Positions 4,080-62,663 of a stretch of DNA of 64,000 nucleotides are shown here, piece after piece (the first letter of the stretch is position 1; each line of letters opens with the position of its first letter). Below the pieces are notes generated by a model. The model was not told the origin of the DNA and made no database searches. It saw only the letters and a program-made list of their open reading frames with translations. Made by a program: the position numbers and the translations under genes. Origin of the DNA: an uncultured Candidatus Saccharibacteria bacterium (GTDB taxonomy: Bacteria; Patescibacteriota; Minisyncoccia; Phycocordibacterales; GWA1-40-21); contig CAZMNX010000001.1 of assembly GCA_964567825.1 (NCBI GenBank), positions 34,775 to 98,774 of the forward strand, written 5' to 3'.

Positions 4080-4481
4080 TTATTTAGTTTCAGTTGGAGC
4101 TTCAGTTGTTTCGCTTTTAGGTTCTACTGGCTCCTTAGCATTAATGATATTTTTCATCTTACGACGAATTTCCTTGGCCGCTTTTTCACGAACATTATAT
4201 AGTTTTGAACGGCGGGCTTTAGAATTTCTAACAATTTCAATTTTTTCGATATTGGGAGAAAATAAAGGGAAAATTCTTTCGACTCCAACGCCGTCTATTA
4301 CTTTTCTGACGGTCAAAGTACCACCCGCTTCATCACCGTGTTTACGAGCAATGATCATTCCTTCAAAAATCTGAACACGAGACTTATCGCCTTCCACAAT
4401 TTTCTGGTGAACGCGAACAGTATCGCTCGCTTTGAGGTTTAATTTCTTTCTTTCTTCGATGTTTACTGATGAAATTTTCAT
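4080..4481 (-). CDS. rplS: 50S ribosomal protein L19
   Basis: [15 protein letters not shown] and overall L19 pattern. Confidence 0.9.
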
Positions 4482-4519
4482 TAGGCTAATCTAACACAAT
4501 TAAGCTTTTTTCGCAAATT

Positions 4520-5257
4520 TTACTGAACCCTAAAAAACTCCACCGCTTTTTGAAAGTCCGACGGATAAGGAGCGACGATTTTCATTACTTTTCCCTTACC
4601 GTCATCGGTTGGTACTTCAAATTCAATCGCATAAGCGTGTAGGGCCAAACGATTAATGAAAGAATCAATTGGTGACTTGCGATATACCGCGTATTGTTTA
4701 TCTCCAATGATGCCGTGCCCAGTATCGGCAAAATGAACGCGTAACTGGTGCGTTCGCCCGGTTTGCGGATTGGCTTCAATTAACGAAATCTTCTCCTTTC
4801 GAGCTAAGGTTTTATAGTGAGTAATTGCTTCTTTGGTTTCGCCACGAACCGCCTTGCCGGTGGCGCGTTTACGAAAATCGCTTTTATTACGACCAATTGG
4901 CAGATTAATAATTCCCTCATCGTAGCGCACGTCACCATAAACTACGGCATGGTAAAACTTTTCGATCTCCCTTCTAACAAATTGCTTCTTTAAAAAATCA
5001 TAGGTTGCCTGGTTTTTCGCCACCAGAACAATACCCGATGTCTCGCGATCAATCCGATGGACAATTCCCCATCTTTTTATTACTTCACCAATACCGAGCT
5101 TAAGTGGCTCACCCACATTTTCAAGCTTAGGATATTTTTCTTTGATCCAATCAGTTAAAGCTAGCTCTTTAGTTCGACCATCAGTGTGCACAACCAAACC
5201 CGACGGTTTATTAACCGCCAGCAAATTTTTATCTTCATATAGAATTGGAACCTCCAT
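4520..5257 (-). CDS. RluA-family 23S rRNA/tRNA pseudouridine synthase
   Basis: HRIDRETSGIVLVAK catalytic Asp motif; 245 aa. Confidence 0.85.
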   Translation of the reverse strand: MEVPILYEDKNLLAVNKPSGLVVHTDGRTKELALTDWIKEKYPKLENVGEPLKLGIGEVIKRWGIVHRIDRETSGIVLVAKNQATYDFLKKQFVRREIEKFYHAVVYGDVRYDEGIINLPIGRNKSDFRKRATGKAVRGETKEAITHYKTLARKEKISLIEANPQTGRTHQLRVHFADTGHGIIGDKQYAVYRKSPIDSFINRLALHAYAIEFEVPTDDGKGKVMKIVAPYPSDFQKAVEFFRVQ

Positions 5258-5258
5258 G

Positions 5259-5331
5259 TGGGCGATACAGGACTCGAACCTGTGACATCTTCAGTGTAAA
5301 TGAAGCGCTCTACCAACTGAGCTAATCGCCC
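5259..5331 (-). tRNA. tRNA-Val (TAC)
   Basis: GGGCGATTAGCTCAGTTGGTAGAGCGC..., anticodon loop TTTACAC, T-arm CAGGTTCGAGTCCTG. Confidence 0.8.
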
Positions 5332-5346
5332 GTTTCTCCCAGACTG

Positions 5347-5418
5347 TGCCCCCGGTAGGAATCGAACCTACATCAATGCCTTAGAAGAGCACTGCTCGAT
5401 CCATTGAGCTACGAGGGC
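5347..5418 (-). tRNA. tRNA-Arg (TCT)
   Basis: Acceptor GCCCTCG/CGGGGGC, D-arm GCTC-AATGGATC-GAGC, anticodon loop CTTCTAA, T-arm GTAGG-TTCGATT-CCTAC. Confidence 0.75.
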
Positions 5419-8932: not shown

Positions 8933-9310
8933 TTATTTATTTTTATCAATATAACTTTGTAAAATTATCGCCGCTGCTGAAGCATCGATCATATCATTTT
9001 CCCCAGTAATCTGGCTTGCCTGAATTGAAGTCATAAATTCTGGCTCGAAAATAACTTTTAGGCCGATTAATTCCAGCTGTTTTCTAAAACCATCGATCTT
9101 CCACATGATCTCATTAATTTTCCCATGAAAATCACGCGATTCGCCCATCACCACTACTTCCACATTATTTTTAATACACAAATTAGCTATATTTTTCAAT
9201 AAATCACTATCGTTGGTTAAAACAATTTGAGGAAAGGCAATCCTTCCTTCATCATCAGACATAGCAATCCCCACTCTTTTTTCGCCAAAATCAATTCCTA
9301 GATATCGCAT
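8933..9310 (-). CDS. ruvX: Holliday junction resolvase-like protein RuvX/YqgF
   Basis: MRYLGIDFGEKRVGIAMSD N-terminus. Confidence 0.85.
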   Translation of the reverse strand: MRYLGIDFGEKRVGIAMSDDEGRIAFPQIVLTNDSDLLKNIANLCIKNNVEVVVMGESRDFHGKINEIMWKIDGFRKQLELIGLKVIFEPEFMTSIQASQITGENDMIDASAAAIILQSYIDKNK

Positions 9311-9354
9311 CTCCCCATCTTACACTAAAACAAACAATCAATAAATATGTCAAA

Positions 9355-9395
9355 GGGGTGGGGCGAATATTTCGCGCCCCACCCCCCTTTTTTTC
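9355..9395. terminator. GC-rich hairpin GGGGTGGGGCG-AATATTT-CGCGCCCCACCCC followed by T8; boundary of the GC-rich cassette
   Basis: Perfect 11-bp inverted repeat and T-run read directly, 30 nt downstream of the stop of the 9425..10333 gene. Confidence 0.45.
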
Positions 9396-9424
9396 TTCCT
9401 GCTTTCTTTGTACAGACAGACGGC

Positions 9425-10333
9425 TCAACCCTGCCGGTCGAGGATCTGCCGGAGCCGCTCGAGCATCTGCTTGGCTGCTTCCTCCATGGCAATCTCGGAG
9501 TCCTCGGCCGGAATGTGAACAACCTTCCACCCCTTGCGCAGCCCGAGGTTGTTGTGCCCATCAGCCTTCGGAACCGTGTCCCGCACGCCACGCCAGAAGA
9601 TCTGACGTGCCATCGAAACTTGTTCCGTGACGTAACGGTTGCGCGTAACAGCCGCCTCAATCAGACACCTCGCTTCGGCTTCAGATGAAGCCCTGACCTG
9701 ATGGACCGGCTTGAGCTCCGGCACCCGACTGAGGCGCTCGAGGACCACGCCGACACCCAACACGACCGGAGAAACGATTTCCCCGATGATGGTCTCCTCA
9801 CGTTCAAGGCTAACCAGAGGAAACCTTTCCCCCTCGACCTGCGCCGCACTCACCTCCGGCCCGGACATCGCTCGGCGCAAATCGCCGAAGAAGGTCAGCG
9901 CCAAGTGATCAGGCGTCTCAAACAAAGGTGTCGACGAAGCTCGACCACTCGGAGAAACCACCAACCAGCCGTCGCGCAGGGCGATGTCGTTCCAATTCCC
10001 GGGGAAGGTATGCAATACCCCCTGCCAGAAAAGATCGTTCATCATCACGCGAATAGCGTCGATTTCTGTCTGCCGCTCCTGGTGGCTGACCAAGGCCTCA
10101 AAACACGGGCGTTCCCGCCGATAGGTCTGCGTGAAGCTTTCCTCCTCGTCGAGCATGAGCAAGCGAAGCCGCTCGCCTTCACAGTAGAAGTTGCGGATCA
10201 TGGGATCCATCATCGTCCCCACCGAAAGCTCGCCGGGCTGATACTCCCGGTCTGAACCGCCGGTATCGACCACAACCGCAGTGTTGTTAAAGATCCGACG
10301 CGCAGACTCGAACACAGACAACTTGGTAGTCAT
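9425..10333 (-). CDS. GC-rich cassette gene A: unknown 302-aa protein with internal repeat, paralog of the 31093..31947 product
   Basis: About 60% GC ORF in a <40% GC background, with an SD (GAGGGAAA) and a low-GC TTGACA-containing upstream region. Its N-terminus aligns with the 31.9-kb gene (TMMDPMIRNFYCEG vs VLTDPMGRAFYHYG), and the motif LFW.GV..(n)LGLR.GW occurs twice. Confidence 0.5.
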   Translation of the reverse strand: MTTKLSVFESARRIFNNTAVVVDTGGSDREYQPGELSVGTMMDPMIRNFYCEGERLRLLMLDEEESFTQTYRRERPCFEALVSHQERQTEIDAIRVMMNDLFWQGVLHTFPGNWNDIALRDGWLVVSPSGRASSTPLFETPDHLALTFFGDLRRAMSGPEVSAAQVEGERFPLVSLEREETIIGEIVSPVVLGVGVVLERLSRVPELKPVHQVRASSEAEARCLIEAAVTRNRYVTEQVSMARQIFWRGVRDTVPKADGHNNLGLRKGWKVVHIPAEDSEIAMEEAAKQMLERLRQILDRQG

Positions 10334-10431
10334 CGTATTTCCCTCGTTAGACGTTACAGTTCGGTCACACTTCTAATTAATAGACTAATATACAACTAAA
10401 ACTATGTCAACATATCTAAAATAAAGAAATG

Positions 10432-11202: not shown

Positions 11203-11323
11203 GTGTTTTTATTTTTCGCTTAAACATAAAAATATCATACCATTCTATCAAGTTAAAAGTCATCAACGAAAAATACTTACCCGCAGGTCTTTGGATAGAA
11301 TGGAGATTTTAGACAAATGAAAA

Positions 11324-11359
11324 GGCCTCGCACACAAGTGGCGTGAAGTGTGCGAGGCA
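11324..11359 (-). terminator. rho-independent terminator of GC-rich cassette B
   Basis: GGCCTCGCACAC-(12-nt loop)-GTGTGCGAGGC perfect inverted repeat, followed on the minus strand by CTTTTCATTT. Confidence 0.5.
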
Positions 11360-11415
11360 CCCTTCATCCCCCGTACGAGGCCGTAGCGAGAAGATTCTTG
11401 GTTCTCTCAGACCAT

Positions 11416-11892
11416 TTACCAGCCACCGCCCTGCAACCGCCTGGCCACAGTTCTCGGCTTTTCGATGAAGTCGCTCATATCGCTGCCCTGGTAAAAGGGG
11501 CGATACTGATGTTCCTTCATCCAGTCAGCCAAGGCAACGCACCGATTCGCCATACCCATGACGATGGCGTGCGAAGACGGAACGGCTGGTGCGCTCCATC
11601 CTCGACGCTCTTGCCACCACCGCACAATGCGTGAGCGAGCCTCGTGCGTCCAAACCGCGACGTTGCGTTCCCACTGGAGGCGATCGTGAATCTGATCGGC
11701 CGCTTGCCGAAAAAGATTCACAAGCTCTTCTGAGCTGAGTGTCTTCCACTCTTGTCCGCCGTGTATGGGTACCCCCTGAAAGAGGGCCTCGTAACGCCTG
11801 ACGATGGGGCCGGCAAACGAAATGTTATTCGTGTCCGCGCTGCTCACCAACTCAATCCCCCCACCCGTCTTCTTGTAACGAATTATCTTCAC
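11416..11892 (-). CDS. GC-rich cassette gene B: unknown 158-aa protein (GTG start, SD AGGAGA)
   Basis: GC-rich ORF; the GTG start is preceded by ACAGGAGATTCACC; no recognizable motif. Confidence 0.4.
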   Translation of the reverse strand: MKIIRYKKTGGGIELVSSADTNNISFAGPIVRRYEALFQGVPIHGGQEWKTLSSEELVNLFRQAADQIHDRLQWERNVAVWTHEARSRIVRWWQERRGWSAPAVPSSHAIVMGMANRCVALADWMKEHQYRPFYQGSDMSDFIEKPRTVARRLQGGGW

Positions 11893-11977
11893 GGTGAATC
11901 TCCTGTTCTATCCGTTATTTCAACACCTGACTAGAACCCTATATATAACTCTAGCATATTTATTATAAAAAGTCAAA

Positions 11978-28734: not shown

Positions 28735-29235
28735 TTAGATTTCTAGCATCCGAAACATCGCCACTCCAAAAGCCACCGAGACGTTAAGGGACTCCTTACT
28801 TCCCAGCATGGGAATCTCGGCAACCTTGTCGGCTAGTTTTAGAATTGACCTGGAGACGCCGTCAACTTCATTGCCAATCACAAAGGCCACTTTTGAACCC
28901 TTAGTGAATTTTATTTTCTTATAATCCACTGATTTATCAGACTGTTCAATACAAACAATTTTAAAGCCCTCTTTTTTTAATTGTTTAATCACCCATAAAG
29001 ATTTCGGGAAATATTCCCAATCAACGTTTATTTCAGCACCCAAAGAAACTTTGGAAATGTCTTCTCGTAACCGCCCAAAACGATCCCGTGGAGTGGGAGT
29101 GGTACCGCAAAGTATAAGCTTGCTAATATCCAAGGCATCGGAAGTTCGAAAAATTGAGCCCACATTGAAAGTGCTGCGGATATTATCTAAAACCACGATG
29201 GTCTCAACCTTGTTTTTTGGTGAATACTTCGACAT
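28735..29235 (-). CDS. SpoU/TrmH-family (SPOUT) RNA 2'-O-methyltransferase
   Basis: VAFVIGNEVDGVS and IPMLGSKESLNVSVAFGVAMF motifs. Confidence 0.7.
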   Translation of the reverse strand: MSKYSPKNKVETIVVLDNIRSTFNVGSIFRTSDALDISKLILCGTTPTPRDRFGRLREDISKVSLGAEINVDWEYFPKSLWVIKQLKKEGFKIVCIEQSDKSVDYKKIKFTKGSKVAFVIGNEVDGVSRSILKLADKVAEIPMLGSKESLNVSVAFGVAMFRMLEI

Positions 29236-29305
29236 CTTTTCATTCTAAGCTTTCACTAAATATTCGCAAGTAGTTAAAAGTTGATAACTTTGCTATAATA
29301 TTTTC

Positions 29306-29722
29306 ATGCCTCACACCTTCAATATTTTCCCCGAATTATTTTCTTTTTCTCTAATTGCACCAAGTATTTTAAGGGTTATTTTGGGTTTGCTCTTTCTCAA
29401 CCTAGGCTCACTTAAGCTCGGAAAAGAGCGATCGGGATGGGTATCCTCGTTTAAGCTTTTAAATATTCACCCAGCCGGATTCTTCACTGGTCTACTGGGA
29501 ATTGTTGAAACAGTTGGTGGCTTTTTACTGATAATCGGTGCTTATACCCAGCTTACCGCTTTAATTTTGTTAATCATTTCAATCTGCGAACTAATGATCG
29601 AGTACCGAGAAGAATCAGTTCTCAAAAGAGATTTTGTTTTCTACTTACTACTAGCAACCATTTGTGTCTCACTTCTACTCACCGGTGCCGGTTTGTTTGC
29701 GGTGGATATTCCAATCCTATAA
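29306..29722 (+). CDS. DoxX family membrane protein
   Basis: Four TM; ILGLLFLNLGSLKL and ETVGGFLLIIG DoxX-like motifs. Confidence 0.55.
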   Translation: MPHTFNIFPELFSFSLIAPSILRVILGLLFLNLGSLKLGKERSGWVSSFKLLNIHPAGFFTGLLGIVETVGGFLLIIGAYTQLTALILLIISICELMIEYREESVLKRDFVFYLLLATICVSLLLTGAGLFAVDIPIL

Positions 29723-29761
29723 AAACGTAAAAGGTCCGGCGCGATGTGCTCGCGCCGGACC
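29721..29761 (-). terminator. rho-independent terminator of GC-rich cassette C
   Basis: GGTCCGGCGCG-ATGTGCT-CGCGCCGGACC perfect 11-bp stem, followed on the minus strand by TTTTACGTTTTT. Confidence 0.55.
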
Positions 29762-29785
29762 CCTCCCTAACCTCCACCCAGACTC

Positions 29786-30220
29786 TTACTCTGTCTGGTA
29801 TTCCTCGATGATTGTAATGAACGAATACCGCTTGACCCCATAGGCGTAACCACGCATGATGTCCCTCATCCCCCGATACTCTTCGCGATAGCCGAAGTTG
29901 AACGAGAAACGATTGTACCACCAATAGTAGTACCAGCCTTCAGTCTGCACGAACTCGCGCCAAGCCTGCGGGTTGAACTGGACGAGTTTTGCACTGTAGC
30001 CCCGCCCCGCTGAAGTTATTGCCACTCGCATAGGCCGAGTGTCAATTCGTGTCACCCACACCCAAGGGGCCGACACGTGCCATCCGCCTCGTTCTTGTAA
30101 CCACATCTTGCCATTGAACCAATTCCTGGCAAGGCCAACCTGAGTGAGGTCGGTGTAGTTCAGAAAAGACAGATAGAAAAGCAGGACAAAGGCCAGAACG
30201 GCCACAATCTTCCTTTTCAT
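29786..30220 (-). CDS. GC-rich cassette C gene 2: SPFH/band-7-like small membrane protein
   Basis: Start MKRKIVAVLAF is a TM helix; GWHVSAPWVWVTRIDTRPMRVAI and AKLVQFNPQ resemble the N-terminal half of an SPFH domain; the ATG overlaps the upstream stop (ATGA). Confidence 0.4.
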   Translation of the reverse strand: MKRKIVAVLAFVLLFYLSFLNYTDLTQVGLARNWFNGKMWLQERGGWHVSAPWVWVTRIDTRPMRVAITSAGRGYSAKLVQFNPQAWREFVQTEGWYYYWWYNRFSFNFGYREEYRGMRDIMRGYAYGVKRYSFITIIEEYQTE

Positions 30221-30768
30221 TTTCCACTTCCGACCGAGGCGGTAGGCACACCAGCCTGACTCGGCGCAAGCTCTTTGCCGACGATGAGAAACGGGCAATC
30301 CCGCCCAGCTTCACTGTCAAACGCGTAGCACCGAAGAATTTCCGCCAGGTCGTTACGGCTGTCTCCAGCCTTCCGACCATGCCAGCGCAGAAAAACGTCG
30401 AGGCCCTTCGGATCAAACTGCACAAGCTTGGCATTCAGTACCCGGCTGCTTATGCTGCCGACACCCCCACCACCCGACGACGTTCCGTTGAGCCCGCCAG
30501 TGATCTGCACCTGAATTGGGCGTAGATCGATCGCGTGCACGCTGTAATGGAACGGATTGCGGATGAAGTAGCCGGTGCGATCAAGATGCTCGATCTCTCC
30601 GGTGTACTTGTTGAAGGTGAACGGAAATTCGTAGTTGTCCACGAACGTCACGAACACGACCCGGAAGAACAGCAAAGCGATGAGCGCAACGCCCAACGAA
30701 ATGCCGCCCCAGACCAGGACGCCCGACAGGCTGATGCGAAAACGAAACTTGCTCGATGTATCATTCAT
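30217..30768 (-). CDS. GC-rich cassette C gene 1: SPFH/band-7-like small membrane protein
   Basis: Start MNDTSS preceded by SD AGAGG; TM helix; GYFIRNPFHYSVHAIDLRPIQVQI and NAKLVQFDPKG are stomatin/HflK-like. Confidence 0.4.
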   Translation of the reverse strand: MNDTSSKFRFRISLSGVLVWGGISLGVALIALLFFRVVFVTFVDNYEFPFTFNKYTGEIEHLDRTGYFIRNPFHYSVHAIDLRPIQVQITGGLNGTSSGGGGVGSISSRVLNAKLVQFDPKGLDVFLRWHGRKAGDSRNDLAEILRCYAFDSEAGRDCPFLIVGKELAPSQAGVPTASVGSGK

Positions 30769-30868
30769 CTCGAACCTCTTAGTTTTGACGAACACACAGA
30801 TCTCTTGGCGAAATACCAAGTTTAATCTCCGTCGCAAGGTTATCACACAATAGACTATTTGTCAACTG

Positions 30869-30941
30869 TCCGCCCAGTTGGAATCGAACCAACGACCTTC
30901 TCCTTAAAAGGGAGCTGCTCTACCAGCTGAGCTATGGGCGG
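30869..30941 (-). tRNA. tRNA-Lys (TTT)
   Basis: Acceptor CCGCCCA/TGGGCGG, D-arm GCTC-AGCTGGTA-GAGC, anticodon loop CTTTTAA, T-arm GTTGG-TTCGATT-CCAAC; the 3' end faces cassette C. Confidence 0.75.
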
Positions 30942-31008
30942 ATTGAAAAGAATATAACAAGAAAAAACCCAAATGTCCAATAATATTCCGACTATACAAT
31001 ATCAAAAA

Positions 31009-31052
31009 AGAGGCCGGTGGTGGGAATCGAACCCACACACCGCCTCCCATAT
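31009..31052 (-). terminator. tRNA T-arm-like hairpin plus T6: terminator of cassette D, or a tRNA 3' remnant
   Basis: On the minus strand GGCGGTGTGTGGG-TTCGATT-CCCACCACCGGCC is followed by TCTTTTTTGA. It has a T-loop-like TTCGATTCC, but no complementary 5' acceptor strand could be found. Confidence 0.4.
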
Positions 31053-31092
31053 TTGTTCTCCACCTCCAAACTAGATGTCTGTCGAGCCCCGT

Positions 31093-31947
31093 TCAGCCAA
31101 CGCCGACCATAACCTCCTGTGGCGGGAACGACGTCAGCATCCAACCCGCCCGGAGGCCAAGTGAGGACGTCTGCTCGCCATCGAGCATCTTCTCGACCAC
31201 CCCCGCCCAGAACAGATCGGCGGCCAAGTCACTGCGAGTTCGCGCGCGTTCCATGGCGACCAGAACCTTCCTGACGTAACCGATGGAGTGCGAAGCCACG
31301 AAGGCATTCATACCCGTCTTGTCGTTCATGAAGGGAATCTCGGCTTTGGCATCGTCCCGAATCTGAGACGAAACGTTCCAGAGTGCCCGCAGAGCTGGAT
31401 CATCGATCGTCGCCATTTCGGCTTCGCCCTCTTCGAGTGGCGAATCCACGTCAAACGAAGCTTCGGCCGCCGTTCCGCTGTCGCCCTTCAGAGCTGCAGT
31501 CACCTCATCCAGAAAGTTCGGATGGGGATTCTTCACGTCACCACCGAACTGACCGAATAGCCCGTCCTTCTTGGCGAACACCCGGAACCCAGAGCAGATC
31601 ACTCCCTGGTCGAAGATGCCGCGCATGGCCGGCAACTCGCGCAAAATGCATTCCCAAGCGAAACGCATCAGCAGGTTGCCGTCCTCCCTCGCCCGCTGCG
31701 CGCTCTGAATCCGCCTGCCGAACTCGCCGAGATTGGGCAGACTGATCAGGCCGCCGGACAGCGACTCCATCACTTTCTCGCGACCGTAATGGTAGAACGC
31801 CCGCCCCATGGGATCGGTCAGGACACCGATCTCCTCGTAACCCCCTGGGGCCTCTGTTCTATTGACAGTGCAGATCTCCGACGGGACGTGCCCGTTCAAA
31901 ATCTCACCCACCAAAACGAACGCCGACTTACTCTTGCTTGTGCTCAT
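31093..31947 (-). CDS. GC-rich cassette gene D: unknown protein, paralog of the 9425..10333 product
   Basis: About 60% GC; ATG at 31945-31947 preceded by GAAAGG; shares DPMGRAFYHYG and ADLFWAGVV..(n)..LGLRAGW motifs with cassette A. Confidence 0.5.
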   Translation of the reverse strand: MSTSKSKSAFVLVGEILNGHVPSEICTVNRTEAPGGYEEIGVLTDPMGRAFYHYGREKVMESLSGGLISLPNLGEFGRRIQSAQRAREDGNLLMRFAWECILRELPAMRGIFDQGVICSGFRVFAKKDGLFGQFGGDVKNPHPNFLDEVTAALKGDSGTAAEASFDVDSPLEEGEAEMATIDDPALRALWNVSSQIRDDAKAEIPFMNDKTGMNAFVASHSIGYVRKVLVAMERARTRSDLAADLFWAGVVEKMLDGEQTSSLGLRAGWMLTSFPPQEVMVGVG

Positions 31948-32050
31948 GGCACTGCCTTTCTGGTCCAATAATGTGGACCGATTGACTAACCAACAACCGA
32001 ACAGACATCAAAAAACTACTAAACCTAAAAAGGAGATTAGCACGAATAAT

Positions 32051-32692
32051 CTATTGTGTCAAAGCGGCATCAATCTGGGCTTTAAGAGTTTGCAGATCCG
32101 TAACCTCTACCCCATTTAAAAGCAAAAAGGGTGTGTAGTCCAAAGCCAAAGCCTTGGCATCATTCAAATCAGCCTGAATAAAATCAGCAAATTTCTTTTG
32201 ATCAATATCGGCTTTAAATTTTACAATGTCTAAACCAACAGTTTTAGCGTAACTCACAAAAAGAGCCGTCGGATCTTTTATCTCGGCCCAATCATTTTGA
32301 TTTTTGTAAAGTAATTCACTCATTTCCCAATATTTACCCTGAGCATTTGCCGCCTCAGCAGCTTCGGCTGAAGGAAAAGCATTAATGTGTTGAGATAATG
32401 GAAAATTACGATACACAAAATTAAAATTGGGGTTGGTTTTATAAGAATCGGCAATTTGTTTTACAAAAGGTGAAACCGTAGCACAGGCTGGACATTGAAA
32501 ATCACCAAACTCTACTAAGGTAACTTTCGCTGTTGTTGTACCAGTCATGTGGCTATTTGGTCTAACCAACAAACTAAGGTCGCGGGCCTTACCATCATTA
32601 GGCTTCGGAGCAAACCAAATAAAAGCTCCGAGTAAAACTACGCAGATAACGACAATGCCAACAATCATTTTTACTTCACTATTTATTTTCAT
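32051..32692 (-). CDS. DsbA-family thiol:disulfide oxidoreductase, N-terminal TM
   Basis: FGDFQCPAC CxxC active site in a thioredoxin-fold context. Confidence 0.7.
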   Translation of the reverse strand: MKINSEVKMIVGIVVICVVLLGAFIWFAPKPNDGKARDLSLLVRPNSHMTGTTTAKVTLVEFGDFQCPACATVSPFVKQIADSYKTNPNFNFVYRNFPLSQHINAFPSAEAAEAANAQGKYWEMSELLYKNQNDWAEIKDPTALFVSYAKTVGLDIVKFKADIDQKKFADFIQADLNDAKALALDYTPFLLLNGVEVTDLQTLKAQIDAALTQ

Positions 32693-33098
32693 ATTTTCGA
32701 TAAATTAAAGTTAAACCGACAATAATAAGTGAAGCAATTAAAGATAAAAATGGAATGGTAATAATGCCGAACAGTTGTAAATCAACATCTGTACAAGAGA
32801 TGCCGTCTCGGCAGGGAACAAAATTTTCAGGAATCACTCCCCAATACAATAAATTATGAAAAAGGGCGACCAGAGTGGCCAAGATAGACAAGGGTAAAAT
32901 GTAGCGATAAGCTTTGGCATCCTTATAAATAATCGCCACGGCACTGATTACAACTAATGGGTAAACTAAAATTCTTTGATACCAACACAAAATACACGGT
33001 GCCCAGCCCAAAACATCGCTAAAATACAAGCTGCCCAGGGTGGCTAATAAAGAAAGGGCAAAAATCGAATATAAGCTATATTTTTTAATAAAAATCAT
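32679..33098 (-). CDS. disulfide bond formation protein B-like (DsbB/BdbC)
   Basis: Four TM with Cys pairs (CILCWYQR and CRDGISC) in the loops; overlaps the dsbA-like gene start. Confidence 0.6.
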   Translation of the reverse strand: MIFIKKYSLYSIFALSLLATLGSLYFSDVLGWAPCILCWYQRILVYPLVVISAVAIIYKDAKAYRYILPLSILATLVALFHNLLYWGVIPENFVPCRDGISCTDVDLQLFGIITIPFLSLIASLIIVGLTLIYRKYENK

Positions 33099-55413: not shown

Positions 55414-55490
55414 TTTTATTTAAAATTATTCTAATAAATCAATTTTTATAACTCCATTCTACTCTCCCTGCTTTATTATGCAAATTTTAA

Positions 55491-55510
55491 AGAGCTCGAC
55501 CGAAGTCGAG
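55491..55510 (-). terminator. hairpin GCTCGAC-CGAAGT-CGAGC downstream of cassette E
   Basis: Inverted repeat followed on the minus strand by CTTTAAAATTT. Confidence 0.35.
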
Positions 55511-55583
55511 CCCTGTTGATAGTGGTTCCGGACATATCAGGTCCGTTGCAGAGTAATCTGCGTAGAAGTTAGGAAAAGGACCG

Positions 55584-56405
55584 CTAGTCCTTCATGAGGA
55601 TCTCGAGCGCCGCCGCCCAATCCTTGGTGCCGTCCGCGTTCATCGGCGCGTGCATCATGACCGTCTTCGCCCCATCGATCTTCACCGAGAAGGACGAGTA
55701 GTAGTCAAATGCCGCCGAGAACGGATCCGCGTGATGGTTCAAGTCGGTGACCACCGCAACAAACTTGGCTCCACGATGCGCCGCCTCGACCATGAGGAGA
55801 ACACCGTAGGGAACGAGCTCGCCGAGCTTGAAGTTGCTGCCCATTGTCTTGGAAGACATCGGGAGATGCAAGTCCGTGAGAACGACGTCGAACTTCTCGC
55901 TGCCGAGAGTCTTCATCGCTTCCTCGTAGCCCGTCGCCGTCGTGAGCTTCTGTCCGGCCAGGCCAGACTTCGCGCTCACGATGTGTGTGGCCGTATCGTC
56001 GATGACGAGGATGCGGAGAGCATCAGGGCGGAGAGGAACTGCTTCCTCAACCACTTTGGCCACCGGAACTTCCAGCGGTTGGAGTCTCGCACGAATCCCG
56101 TTGATGACATCAACGAGACCAACCAGGATATTCACCGTGGGGATGATCAAGCAGTTCTCGGGCAACCGCAAGCGCTCCTCACGATTCGACAGCCTGAGGC
56201 AGGCGTACGACTTCTCCTGGCTGTACCCACGCTCAATCTCACGCACGTCTGTGAAGATGACGAGATCCGCCTCGTCCACCGTTTCCACGAACACATGCGA
56301 AGTTTCGTTGCCGACGATCGGCAAGACCTGCTTGATCGAGCGTGGGAGGGGTCCGTCCTCCATCGCGAGACGAATTCGAACCGGTCGGTTTGTTGTTGTG
56401 CTCAT
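55584..56405 (-). CDS. GC-rich cassette E gene 2: unknown N-terminal domain plus C-terminal receiver (REC)-like domain
   Basis: ILVIDDTATHIVSAKSG...KFDVVLTDLHLPM...VAVVTD resembles CheY-like DD / D-phosphoacceptor / T spacing; start ATG at 56403-56405 with SD AAAGGAAAAG. Confidence 0.45.
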   Translation of the reverse strand: MSTTTNRPVRIRLAMEDGPLPRSIKQVLPIVGNETSHVFVETVDEADLVIFTDVREIERGYSQEKSYACLRLSNREERLRLPENCLIIPTVNILVGLVDVINGIRARLQPLEVPVAKVVEEAVPLRPDALRILVIDDTATHIVSAKSGLAGQKLTTATGYEEAMKTLGSEKFDVVLTDLHLPMSSKTMGSNFKLGELVPYGVLLMVEAAHRGAKFVAVVTDLNHHADPFSAAFDYYSSFSVKIDGAKTVMMHAPMNADGTKDWAAALEILMKD

Positions 56406-56557
56406 TGGCACTTTTCCTTTCTGTTGTTGTAAAGATCTTTTCCGTTTCGTCCTTTTGGACTCATCAGGTAAAGTACTCACTTTACTACGGAGGGGCATTT
56501 ACTATGGCGCCCCAGATGCCATGAAAGTTTCTTAGCACTTACAACAGATGAAGGTCC

Positions 56558-56994
56558 CTAGTCCCGCTTCGGATCGGCCCAGAAGATCGCGTAGGCGATC
56601 ATTTCCGGGGTGACGTTTGTCACCTGGCCGATCTCATCGAAGTACCACGGAGTGGCCCGATTCAGGTCCATACCATCGGTACAGACGATGAGACCGAGCT
56701 TCTGCCGACTCTCCTGGCTCATGTCCAGGGCATTCCCCGCGATCATGAGCTTCCAGCCGGTGGCCTGCAGGAAATTCTGCAGATCGCCAGCCTTGATCGG
56801 AACGACCAGCCGGCCGTCCACGTACCGAACGCACCGCTCCTGAGGAACGATGACGTCGGCGGCCGCCTGCGCCTCGCCGCATCCCGGACAGGGCTTAGCT
56901 CCGCCCACCGAGACGCGGACCAGAGCCGCCGCCAGAAACAAGCCGACCCCGACCACCGCAATCACCCACAGGGTATCGCAAATGCGCTTCATCA
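56558..56994 (-). CDS. GC-rich cassette E gene 1: membrane-anchored hypothetical protein
   Basis: MMKRICDTLWVIAVVGVGLFLAAALV TM; SD AAGGGAGAG before the ATG; GC-rich. Confidence 0.4.
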
Positions 56995-57131
56995 TGACTT
57001 TCTCTCCCTTTATTTCAATCACCTATTGATCGCGTTGTGCGACCCGGGGTAGGTGAAACCCCACTGTCTAGTATGATAGCATACTTTAGGCTAAAAGTCA
57101 AGCACTTTTTAAGGCCCTAGGGAGGGAGTGT

Positions 57132-61718: not shown

Positions 61719-62162
61719 TCACCACACTATTTCCCGCTCGTTCTCCGAGATAAATTTAAAATTAAGTCTGATTAAATCTTTTGGCAAGACATCAATCACC
61801 CGCTCTGGCCATTCTAATAAAATTAAATTGCTTTTATCTTGGAGTATTTTTTCAAAACCCAAAACCTGTAACTCTCTTCCGGAGTCAAGACGATAAGCAT
61901 CAATGTGAATTAAGTTTTTAAAATTATTTTTACCGTCGAGCTGATATATTTTTTCAATTACAAAAGTTGGACTGGTCATAAACTCATTAATTCCCAAATG
62001 GCGACCGAGAGCTTGCGAAAAAGTGGTTTTACCAGAACCGAGGTCGCCAAACAAGCCGATGAGGGTGGCCGTTTCCTTTCCCTTTTCTAATTTAATAATC
62101 TTACTTAAAAAATCACCCGCAATCTTATTCGTCTCTTCTAAACTTTTACTTAAAAATTTCAT
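61719..62162 (-). CDS. tsaE: tRNA threonylcarbamoyladenosine biosynthesis protein TsaE
   Basis: LFGDLGSGKTTFSQALGRHLGI P-loop and HIDAYRL; 147 aa. Confidence 0.85.
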   Translation of the reverse strand: MKFLSKSLEETNKIAGDFLSKIIKLEKGKETATLIGLFGDLGSGKTTFSQALGRHLGINEFMTSPTFVIEKIYQLDGKNNFKNLIHIDAYRLDSGRELQVLGFEKILQDKSNLILLEWPERVIDVLPKDLIRLNFKFISENEREIVW

Positions 62163-62185
62163 CGCTATATTTTAGCATAAAAAAA

Positions 62186-62230
62186 GGAGCGCGCTGGGAG
62201 ATTTTCCTCTCCCAAACGCGCCAGGCCCTT
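62186..62230 (-). terminator. rho-independent terminator of GC-rich cassette F
   Basis: Compound hairpin GCGCG-CT-GGGAGA-TTTTCC-TCTCCC-AAA-CGCGC, followed on the minus strand by TCCTTTTTTT. Confidence 0.6.
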
Positions 62231-62236
62231 AGGCCT

Positions 62237-62575
62237 TCACCGTTGCCGTGGTGGTAATTGGGGCAACAGCCCCTGGAACTCCTGGCCCGATGGGGACTGA
62301 CTGACACCAGCCTGAGACCCGCCACCACTCGTTCCCCAACTCCAGTTCCCGCTGGTGTGCCAGGTACCACCATTGTATGGCACAACCGCCGCGCCATTGC
62401 CCGTGCTGCGGGCTTTGTTGTGATAGGTTGTCGTTTCCTTGATCGTACCATCGGGCAGGGTCACCCGCTCGTAGGTGGTTTCCCCGCTGTTTTCGGATTC
62501 TGACACCTGTGGTGCCGTCATGCACCCGCCCGCCAGCACGAGCCCAATCATCGCAAAGAACACTGTCGTTTTCAT
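62237..62575 (-). CDS. GC-rich cassette F: small lipoprotein (lipobox LAGGC), Gly/Ser/Thr/Trp-rich
   Basis: MKTTVFFAMIGLVLAGGC signal/lipobox; SD AGGGGA; GC-rich. Confidence 0.5.
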   Translation of the reverse strand: MKTTVFFAMIGLVLAGGCMTAPQVSESENSGETTYERVTLPDGTIKETTTYHNKARSTGNGAAVVPYNGGTWHTSGNWSWGTSGGGSQAGVSQSPSGQEFQGLLPQLPPRQR

Positions 62576-62634
62576 ATCGCATCCCCTGGTTAACCCACAC
62601 TATCACTCGGAATTTCGAAAACTACTATTCCACT

Positions 62635-62663
62635 ATTATACACCCAAACGTCTTTCCTGTCAA
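62635..62663 (-). promoter_or_regulatory. consensus sigma70-like promoter (TTGACA-17-TATAAT) for the cassette F lipoprotein gene
   Basis: Minus strand reads TTGACAGGAAAGACGTTTGGGTGTATAAT about 60 nt upstream of the ATG at 62575. Confidence 0.5.

What the first reader, a model, noticed from the sequence alone, without database searches (positions are those of the whole stretch)
29786..30768. GC-rich tandem pair of truncated SPFH/band-7-like membrane proteins with an ATGA stop-start overlap, directly abutting the tRNA-Lys 3' end
Both products have an N-terminal TM helix, then an SPFH-like beta region (GYFIRNPFHYSVHAIDLRPIQVQI / GWHVSAPWVWVTRIDTRPMRVAI) and the shared AKLVQF(D/N)P motif. They are only about 140-180 aa, roughly half an SPFH domain. 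The genes are translationally coupled (AATGA). The cassette begins 100 nt from the 3' end of tRNA-Lys(TTT), a classic integration position, and ends in an 11-bp GC hairpin terminator.
Basis: partly seen in the sequence, partly recalled or inferred. Interest (0 to 1): 0.6.

Follow-up and report, generated by a model that had tools for sequence, protein, structure and literature searches.

The report
Compact SPFH-like membrane protein gene pair
Two overlapping genes next to a lysine tRNA encode a previously unnamed, unusually short pair of SPFH (band-7/HflK-HflC-like) membrane proteins; the pair recurs in many Paceibacteria (CPR) genomes and some very large phages, and here it sits on a small piece of compositionally foreign DNA.

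Summary
Gene A (30768-30217, 183 aa) and gene B (30220-29786, 144 aa) lie on the minus strand with an ATGA stop/start overlap. They start 99 nt after tRNA-Lys(UUU) and end in a strong GC hairpin terminator. Their GC3 is 0.66-0.68 against 0.31-0.43 for host genes.

They are not truncated remnants. They belong to a small family (206 clusters among 1.84 billion representatives, listed hits 87-255 aa) that lacks the SPFH coiled-coil and cap. A always precedes B (73/73 loci), usually with a 4-nt overlap (58/73). The pair also occurs in four phage contigs, including a 636-kb megaphage.

The integration idea is only partly supported. The composition is foreign, and the nearest relative has the orthologous tRNA-Lys without the pair. 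But there is no integrase and no att repeat, and tRNA adjacency is seen at about 6% of cassette flanks in other loci.

Likely function (inferred): an extracytoplasmic HflK/C-like heteromer.

The parts
30217..30768 (-). Gene A: 183-aa single-pass membrane protein. It has an N-terminal signal-anchor helix (residues about 14-39), a compact SPFH-fold domain, a Gly/Ser-rich disordered loop (residues about 91-108), and two co-varying cysteines (C147, C158).
29786..30220 (-). Gene B: 144-aa paralogue of A. It has an N-terminal signal-anchor helix (residues 2-17), a compact SPFH-fold domain, and a Trp/Tyr/Arg-rich conserved segment (EGWYYYWWYNRFSFNFGY.EEYRGMRDI.RGYAY).
30217..30220 (-). ATGA stop/start overlap (A stop TGA, B start ATG), implying translational coupling.
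   Evidence: Read directly from the sequence. The same 4-nt overlap (ATGA or GTGA, in frame) is present in 58/73 metagenome loci and in megaphage LR756504.1.
29729..29765 (-). Intrinsic terminator of the cassette: a GC-rich hairpin followed by a T-run. It marks the distal edge of the GC-rich segment, 7 nt from the stop codon of the convergent DoxX gene.
   Evidence: Terminator scan: 16 pairs, 10 of them GC, tail ACGTTTTTAT; 12-bp perfect arms (I18); folding energy -31.5 kcal/mol.
30769..30867 (-). 99-nt leader between the tRNA-Lys 3' end and the A start. It holds a promoter-like TTGACA (30865-30860), a 17-nt spacer containing the palindrome AATAGTCTATT, TGaTAACCT (30845-30837), and the RBS AAGAGG (30780-30775). 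No terminator separates it from the tRNA on this strand.
   Evidence: Sequence. There is no minus-strand terminator between 30868 and 30768. The promoter call is my reading: the -10 element matches only 3/6 and the scan tool did not list it.
30868..30941 (-). Native tRNA-Lys(UUU), a neighbour and not part of the cassette. Its promoter lies at about 30979-30951.
   Evidence: ARAGORN and Rfam. It is 70/74 identical to the tRNA-Lys of the closest relative L016, with compensatory T-stem changes and a conserved upstream promoter region. Promoter scan match 10/12.

Best explanation
A and B are two paralogous single-pass membrane proteins. Each consists of an N-terminal signal-anchor helix and a compact SPFH-fold domain, and each lacks the coiled-coil and C-terminal cap of canonical SPFH proteins.

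They are made in a fixed ratio from one transcript by translational coupling (shown: the conserved 4-nt overlap). Most likely they assemble into a hetero-oligomer on the outer face of the cytoplasmic membrane, as HflK/HflC, PHB1/2, erlin1/2 and flotillin1/2 do. That step is inferred from paralogy, strict co-occurrence, the positive-inside rule and a co-varying Cys pair. By analogy such a complex would organise or shield membrane clients, but without the coiled-coil it could not form a closed cage (inferred).

The two-gene module is self-contained and has no conserved neighbour. It occurs in many Paceibacteria/Parcubacteria and in large phages. In this genome it arrived by horizontal transfer as a roughly 1.1-kb cassette with its own terminator, directly downstream of the native tRNA-Lys gene. 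It may be transcribed by read-through from the tRNA promoter as well as from its own promoter-like site (inferred).

For: Pairing: A and B are paralogues. A lies upstream of B in 73/73 loci that have enough upstream sequence; the 7 loci without A are cut within 300 nt of a contig end. The overlap is ATGA/GTGA in 58/73 loci.

Compactness: 206 family clusters among 1.84 billion representatives, the 150 listed being 87-255 aa with no full-length SPFH protein among them.

Topology: the N-termini MNDTSSKFRFR and MKRK are positively charged. Two Cys in A co-vary. DsbA/DsbB are encoded at 32051-33098.

No partner gene: the most recurrent neighbour family occurs in 4 of 67 distinct loci.

Horizontal origin: GC3 is 0.66-0.68 against 0.31-0.43. 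Across 30 distinct loci, cassette 4-fold GC tracks the host with a slope of only 0.45 and averages +0.067 (Wilcoxon p 0.015). The relative L016 has the orthologous tRNA-Lys beside Fpg-SpoU without the pair.

Phage copies: three IMG/VR contigs carrying endolysin, rIIA, RtcB or HNH genes, plus the 636-kb megaphage LR756504.1 with the same 4-nt overlap.
Confidence: 0.55

Rival explanations
1. The pair is a phage-host conflict module. It would be a phage-derived 'moron' or exclusion/defence cassette (for example superinfection exclusion, or manipulation of the host membrane protease), fixed in CPR genomes rather than serving a housekeeping scaffold role. This concerns function and is compatible with the SPFH fold.
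For: The pair is carried by genuine phage contigs with native phage composition. It sits in variable positions with no conserved neighbours. It is compositionally foreign here and often elsewhere. This genome holds several other GC-rich one- or two-gene islands.
Against: There are no PADLOC or PHROG matches. In the bacterial contigs inspected, the pair lies among housekeeping genes rather than prophage genes. It is strongly conserved across many CPR lineages. The phage copies number only four and are not monophyletic in a rough NJ tree, so the direction of transfer is unknown.
Confidence: 0.25
2. This is the first reader's reading: the cassette is, or is the remnant of, an integrase-mediated genomic island that targeted the 3' end of tRNA-Lys.
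For: It starts 99 nt from the tRNA 3' end, is co-oriented with it, and has foreign composition. A second GC-rich ORFan island flanks the other side of the same tRNA and ends in a tRNA-minihelix-like sequence. In other genomes a co-oriented tRNA lies within 400 nt upstream of A in 4/49 loci, plus L004; background density is 0.05 tRNA per kb.
Against: There is no direct repeat of the tRNA-Lys 3' end at the distal border or anywhere in 29200-32300. There is no integrase-sized ORF in or next to the island. The adjacent tRNAs in other genomes are of different species (Gln, Arg, Phe, Leu, Asp), and over 90% of loci have none. The tRNA is intact and orthologous to that of a relative.
Confidence: 0.15
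3. The pair is vertically inherited, and its high GC3 reflects selection or mutation bias on this gene pair (mRNA structure or stability, codon choice) rather than transfer.
For: Cassette GC3 exceeds flank GC3 in most genomes, not only here: mean +0.10, above +0.05 in 23/35 loci. A directional bias of this kind is not what random exchange would give.
Against: The excess shrinks to +0.067 at 4-fold sites, with 10/30 loci negative and a regression slope of 0.45, which indicates weak coupling to host composition. The shift here is extreme (+0.25 to +0.29) and is shared with unrelated ORFan islands in the same window. Ribosomal-protein genes next to one cassette are not GC3-rich (L010). The nearest relative lacks the pair at this locus.
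Confidence: 0.15
4. The SPFH resemblance is only a shared fold, and the proteins are extracytoplasmic enzymes or ligand-binding proteins rather than scaffolds.
Against: One family member passes the Band_7 gathering score over the same N-terminal beta region. The top structural hits are all SPFH, with a sharp drop afterwards. The paralogous-pair arrangement mirrors HflK/C (established knowledge).
Confidence: 0.1

Closest known systems
HflK/HflC (bacterial SPFH pair, modulator of FtsH; PDB 7vhp/7vhq)
   Different: A and B are 144-183 aa, against the 267-299-residue chains in the structures. They lack the CC1/CC2 coiled-coil and the C-terminal cap that build the 24-subunit cage. No ftsH or hflX linkage is seen. 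The window proteins have no Pfam Band_7 match.
Prohibitin 1/2, erlin 1/2, flotillin 1/2, stomatin (eukaryotic and archaeal SPFH proteins)
   Same: The core fold is the same. Several of these also work as obligate paralogue heteromers (established knowledge).
   Different: Those proteins are full-length with coiled-coils and form closed cages or rings. Sequence identity to A and B is only 7-16%.
Viral Band 7 / SPFH proteins (giant viruses, Caudovirales; BFVD entries)
   Same: They are SPFH-fold proteins encoded by viruses. The A/B pair is also phage-borne.
   Different: Most BFVD hits are single proteins of about 270-470 aa and include the coiled-coil. None is reported there as a short overlapping pair. 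No PHROG family matches A or B.
tRNA-associated genomic islands
   Same: The cassette lies directly 3' of a tRNA gene and has atypical composition.
   Different: There is no integrase and no att duplication, the cassette is only about 1.1 kb, and the tRNA association is not conserved.

Membership tests
SPFH / Band 7 (Pfam PF01145) | Sequence match to the Band_7 profile at or above the gathering score | tested here: not met
   A and B give no Pfam hit at E<=10. Among homologues, 9/47 A-type and 1/45 B-type hit weakly. Only P0047 passes (25.7 against 23.6 bits), covering profile positions 2-62 of 176.
SPFH / Band 7 (Pfam PF01145) | SPFH alpha/beta core fold | tested here: met
SPFH / Band 7 (Pfam PF01145) | N-terminal membrane anchor | tested here: met
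   Hydrophobic N-terminal helices at A 14-39 and B 2-17, preceded by positively charged N-termini.
SPFH / Band 7 (Pfam PF01145) | C-terminal coiled-coil (CC1/CC2) and cap that drive assembly into a cage or ring | tested here: not met
   Both proteins end one strand after the core helices. All 150 listed family representatives are 87-255 aa.
HflK/HflC-type heteropair | Two adjacent paralogous SPFH genes that always co-occur | tested here: met
   Paralogy. A lies upstream of B in 73/73 informative loci, with a 4-nt overlap in 58.
HflK/HflC-type heteropair | Physical hetero-oligomer and association with FtsH or another client | not testable with these tools
The gene-neighbourhood proxy shows no conserved partner.
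tRNA-targeting integrative island | Location at the 3' end of a tRNA gene, with atypical composition | tested here: met
   99 nt from the tRNA-Lys 3' end. GC3 is 0.66-0.68 against 0.31-0.43.
tRNA-targeting integrative island | Direct repeat of the tRNA 3' end (att) at the distal border | tested here: not met
   No such repeat was found in 29200-32300 with seed 7.
tRNA-targeting integrative island | Integrase or recombinase gene in the island | tested here: not met
   The island holds only A and B. The flanking genes are DoxX, SpoU methylase, Fpg, DsbA and DsbB.
tRNA-targeting integrative island | Empty site in a related genome | tested here: inconclusive
   L016 (Fpg 69% identical) has Fpg-SpoU, a 259-aa membrane protein, then the orthologous tRNA-Lys, with no A/B and no GC-rich DNA. 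However, the tRNA is inverted and the flanking genes differ.
Intrinsic (Rho-independent) terminator | GC-rich hairpin followed by a U-run, downstream of the last gene | tested here: met
   At 29765-29729 on the minus strand: 16 pairs, -31.5 kcal/mol, followed by a T-run, starting 21 nt after the B stop.

The most novel reading that the evidence does not exclude
The A/B pair is a mobile two-gene membrane module exchanged between CPR bacteria and megaphages. It would build a new kind of SPFH assembly, a coiled-coil-less heteromer on the outer membrane face, that acts in phage-host conflict or in the membrane biology of lipid-scavenging CPR cells. In this lineage, conserved tRNA genes would serve as anchors for capturing promoter-gene-terminator cassettes, several of which dot this genome as GC-rich ORFan islands.
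Probability: 0.15. Interest if true: 0.7.

Novelty: new variant of a known kind. Interest (0 to 1): 0.42.

Why it matters
Recent cryo-EM structures show SPFH proteins (HflK/C, prohibitins, erlins, flotillins, stomatin) forming closed cages held together by their coiled-coil and cap regions. A strongly conserved natural family that keeps only the membrane anchor and the SPFH core, always as a translationally coupled paralogue pair, is a minimal test case for what the core does on its own.

The family is absent from Pfam, NCBIfam, PHROGs and PADLOC. It is confined, as far as sampled, to CPR/Paceibacteria and a few large phages. That gives an annotation to hundreds of 'hypothetical proteins' and points to gene flow between megaphages and CPR bacteria.

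The locus also illustrates small foreign cassettes being gained on both sides of a native tRNA gene without any integrase.

Tried and rejected
Direct family searches with A, B and the neighbouring ORF C291 found nothing: Pfam, NCBIfam, PHROGs and PADLOC.

Profile searches of A1 and A2 against PDB sequences gave only chance hits (lactoylglutathione lyase E 0.13; maltose-binding protein E 1.4).

AFDB50 Foldseek was not available.

The search for att-type repeats of the tRNA-Lys 3' end found none.

The exact-protein look-ups for DoxX and DsbA aimed to find island-free strains. Every contig that reaches beyond DoxX (2 of 3) continues into B/A, and both DsbA contigs continue into C291; only three samples are involved. 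The third DoxX contig (L014) stops 15 nt after the DoxX stop. Contig breaks at the tRNA and at the hairpin are uninformative, because they are probably assembly-graph artefacts.

C291 has no homologue among 5.8 billion proteins. C291, G302 and G304 have no match in the phage collection, so a phage origin of the other GC islands could not be shown.

The conserved-neighbour analysis was negative.

A rough NJ tree of B did not resolve the direction of phage/CPR transfer.

The weak BLAST similarity between B and the lipoprotein-like ORF at 62237-62575 (E 2e-4 in a 10-sequence database) was judged compositional (Gly/Trp/Ser-rich) and was not pursued.

Literature searches for SPFH combined with CPR or Patescibacteria found no description of this family.

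Full report
**1. The observation**

The region holds two minus-strand ORFs. Gene A runs 30768->30217 (183 aa from the ATG, preceded by AAGAGG at 30780-30775). Gene B runs 30220->29786 (144 aa). The plus strand reads TCAT at 30217-30220, which is ATGA on the coding strand, so the stop of A overlaps the start of B.

tRNA-Lys(UUU) is at 30868-30941 on the same strand, 99 nt upstream of A. Twenty-one nt after the B stop lies a hairpin at 29765-29729: 12 perfect base pairs, 16 when extended, -31.5 kcal/mol, followed by a T-run. It matches the intrinsic-terminator pattern.

The window averages 40.6% GC; the cassette is 52-57% GC. GC3 is 0.66-0.68, against 0.31-0.43 in ten neighbouring genes. GC at 4-fold sites is 0.675, against a host median of 0.425.

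**2. What the proteins are**

A and B are paralogues. BLASTP gives E 6e-10, and profile-profile comparison gives probability 99.6% with E 1e-23 over the whole domain.

Neither protein matches any Pfam, NCBIfam, PHROG or PADLOC model, even at E<=10. Family profiles do not reach any PDB sequence.

Both have many homologues. A has 47 clusters at 40-63% identity, and B has 97 at 48-75%. Where sources give a name, it is Pacebacteria, Paceibacterota or Parcubacteria.

AlphaFold2 models built on these alignments are confident (pLDDT 86.9 and 88.2). Each shows an N-terminal helix, a seven-stranded beta region, two or three helices and a final strand.

At sequence level, 9 of 47 A homologues give weak Band_7 hits.

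I therefore accept SPFH-fold homology, while noting that the window proteins fail the Pfam membership test.

**3. Not truncated remnants but a compact family**

An exhaustive HMM search of 1.84 billion cluster representatives with the A profile finds only 206 proteins at E<=1e-3. The 150 listed are all 87-255 aa, and none is a canonical-length SPFH protein.

Both models end right after the SPFH core. The coiled-coil and cap that build the cages of HflK/C, prohibitins, erlins, flotillins and stomatin are absent. That these segments build the cages is established knowledge.

Conservation is high: mean column identity is 40% for A and 53% for B, with many invariant polar residues.

**4. A strict, translationally coupled pair**

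In 80 metagenome loci retrieved with the B profile, A lies immediately upstream on the same strand in all 73 loci with enough upstream sequence. The other seven are cut within 300 nt of the contig end.

In 58 of the 73, the A stop overlaps an in-frame ATG or GTG (ATGA/GTGA). Most of the rest show TAATG or spacers of at most about 20 nt. The same holds in the individually inspected contigs.

No other gene is conserved nearby. Among 67 distinct loci the most recurrent neighbour family occurs in four. This points to a self-contained two-subunit unit made in a fixed ratio.

**5. Topology (inferred)**

Both N-termini carry three positive charges before the hydrophobic helix. This predicts an N-in, domain-out orientation, as for HflK/C.

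Two cysteines of A (C147, C158) co-vary across the family: both present in 43 sequences, both absent in 77, mixed in 10. That is what a disulfide would give. DsbA and DsbB genes lie 1.3 kb away. I could not measure the Cys-Cys distance in the model.

**6. Phage copies**

The A profile finds the pair on three IMG/VR contigs of 26, 49 and 247 kb. Their neighbours match phage families: endolysin, RtcB, HNH endonuclease, rIIA and GIY-YIG homing endonuclease. The pair's GC on those contigs is typical of the contig.

tblastn against GenBank phages finds one record, the 636-kb 'megaphage' LR756504.1. There A and B again overlap by 4 nt.

A rough NJ tree does not group the phage copies together, so the direction of transfer is open.

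**7. Is it an insertion at the tRNA?**

Evidence for foreign origin:
- The extreme GC3 shift.
- The tRNA-Lys and its promoter are native. They are 70/74 identical to the tRNA of the closest species-level relative found (L016, a Paceibacteria MAG with Fpg 69% identical), with two compensatory T-stem changes and a conserved upstream region.
- That relative has Fpg-SpoU, a membrane protein and then tRNA-Lys, with no A/B and no GC-rich DNA.
- Across 30 distinct loci, cassette composition follows host composition only weakly: slope 0.45, mean excess +0.067 at 4-fold sites, p 0.015; GC3 excess +0.10. This fits repeated exchange.

Evidence against a classical integrase-mediated island:
- No repeat of the tRNA 3' end.
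- No integrase-sized ORF in or beside the cassette.
- In other genomes a tRNA lies within 400 nt in only 7 of 109 flanks, about 2 being expected. The tRNA species vary (Gln, Arg, Phe, Leu, Asp).
- The L016 site is rearranged, so it is not a clean empty site.

My reading is horizontal acquisition next to a conserved tRNA gene, by an unknown and probably non-integrase route. The tRNA gene may have acted as a homology anchor, which is inference.

No terminator separates the tRNA from A on the coding strand. Read-through co-transcription is therefore possible, in addition to a weak promoter-like site: TTGACA, 17 nt, TGaTAACCT at 30865-30837.

**8. Mechanism and comparison**

Best-supported model (confidence 0.55): a compact HflK/HflC-like heteromer on the outer face of the membrane. 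It is shown to be SPFH-fold, paralogous, strictly paired and translationally coupled. It is inferred to be heteromeric, extracytoplasmic and scaffold-like, and to be unable to form a closed cage because the coiled-coil is missing.

Rivals:
- A phage-conflict role (0.25; compatible with the fold).
- A degenerate tRNA-targeted island (0.15).
- Vertical inheritance with selected GC (0.15).
- A non-scaffold enzymatic or binding function (0.1).

Literature searches found no description of such a family in CPR bacteria.

**9. Verdict**

The finding is real and its SPFH idea is right at fold level. The proteins are not truncated; they form a distinct, unnamed compact SPFH pair family shared by Paceibacteria and some large phages. 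The tRNA integration claim is only partly supported. Novelty: a new variant of a known kind. Interest is moderate (0.42), mainly for SPFH structural biology and for CPR/megaphage gene exchange.

Noticed in passing
window 31093-31968 (-): A second GC-rich segment (59% GC, GC3 0.74) lies on the other side of the native tRNA-Lys promoter. It encodes a 273-291-aa ORFan ('C291'). It has no Pfam, NCBIfam, PHROG or PADLOC hit, no homologue other than itself among 5.8 billion proteins, and no match in the phage collection. The tRNA gene is therefore bracketed by two foreign cassettes.
   Followed up: partly
window 31006-31056 (-): The terminator hairpin after C291 (-26 kcal/mol, followed by T6) looks like a tRNA minihelix: an acceptor-like stem GGCGGUG/CACCGGC stacked on a T-arm GUGGG-UUCGAUU-CCCAC. 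It shares GGTTCGATTCC with tRNA-Lys. Its best Rfam hits, all below threshold, are the tRNA-like mascRNA and the tmRNA T-arm. It could be a relic of a tRNA or att site, or a tRNA-like 3' processing signal. It matches none of the seven tRNAs in the window.
   Followed up: partly
window 9301-10350, 11251-11950, 55451-57100, 62151-62650: Four more GC-rich islands (53-58% GC in a 40% GC genome) were seen. For the first three, the ORFs have GC3 0.67-0.79 and each island has an AT-rich promoter-like region and a GC hairpin terminator. They encode ORFs of 302 aa; 158 aa; and 154 + 304 aa. The fourth (62151-62650) holds overlapping ORFs with GC3 0.53-0.67, one of them a lipoprotein-like 112-aa ORF; its flanks were not read. 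There are no confident Pfam hits; the 304-aa ORF has a sub-threshold Response_reg match. The genome seems dotted with small foreign expression cassettes.
   Followed up: partly
window 31093-31968 and 9425-10333 (-): C291 and the 302-aa island ORF share a short repeated motif (LFWxGV...LGLRxGW.V...P; BLASTP E 5e-5 in a small database, and the motif occurs twice in the 302-aa ORF). This suggests that the ORFan islands come from a common gene pool.
   Followed up: no
window 30865-30837, 32062-32034, about 10412-10379 (all -): Promoter-like sites upstream of three GC-rich cassettes (A/B, C291, the 302-aa ORF) share TTGACA followed by a palindrome AATAG(N2)TATT; the first two also have TGnTAAnCT. 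TTGACANNATAGNNTATT has 5 matches with up to 2 mismatches, against 0.59 expected. The short palindrome alone is not enriched (16 against 10.7). This may be a shared operator.
   Followed up: partly
L105 (LR756504.1) 4303-5369; L022 7908-9616; L023 7983-8935; L024 7953-8847: The A/B pair occurs in a 636-kb megaphage and on three IMG/VR phage contigs. vWA-domain-like ORFs (judged by eye from the translations, not scanned) lie nearby in two of them, and an endolysin lies 2.6 kb upstream in one. The megaphage copy keeps the 4-nt overlap.
   Followed up: partly
gene A residues C147 and C158 (window about 30330-30295): The two cysteines are gained or lost together across the family (CC 43, neither 77, mixed 10). 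The phage copies lack both. This is consistent with a disulfide in the CPR subfamily. DsbA/DsbB genes lie at 32051-33098.
   Followed up: partly
L016 11506-11579 vs window 30868-30941: The tRNA-Lys genes of the two Paceibacteria differ only by two compensatory base-pair changes in the T-stem (TT..AA against CA..TG), and their upstream promoter regions are conserved. However, the gene is inverted relative to the Fpg-SpoU block, so the locus has been rearranged.
   Followed up: yes
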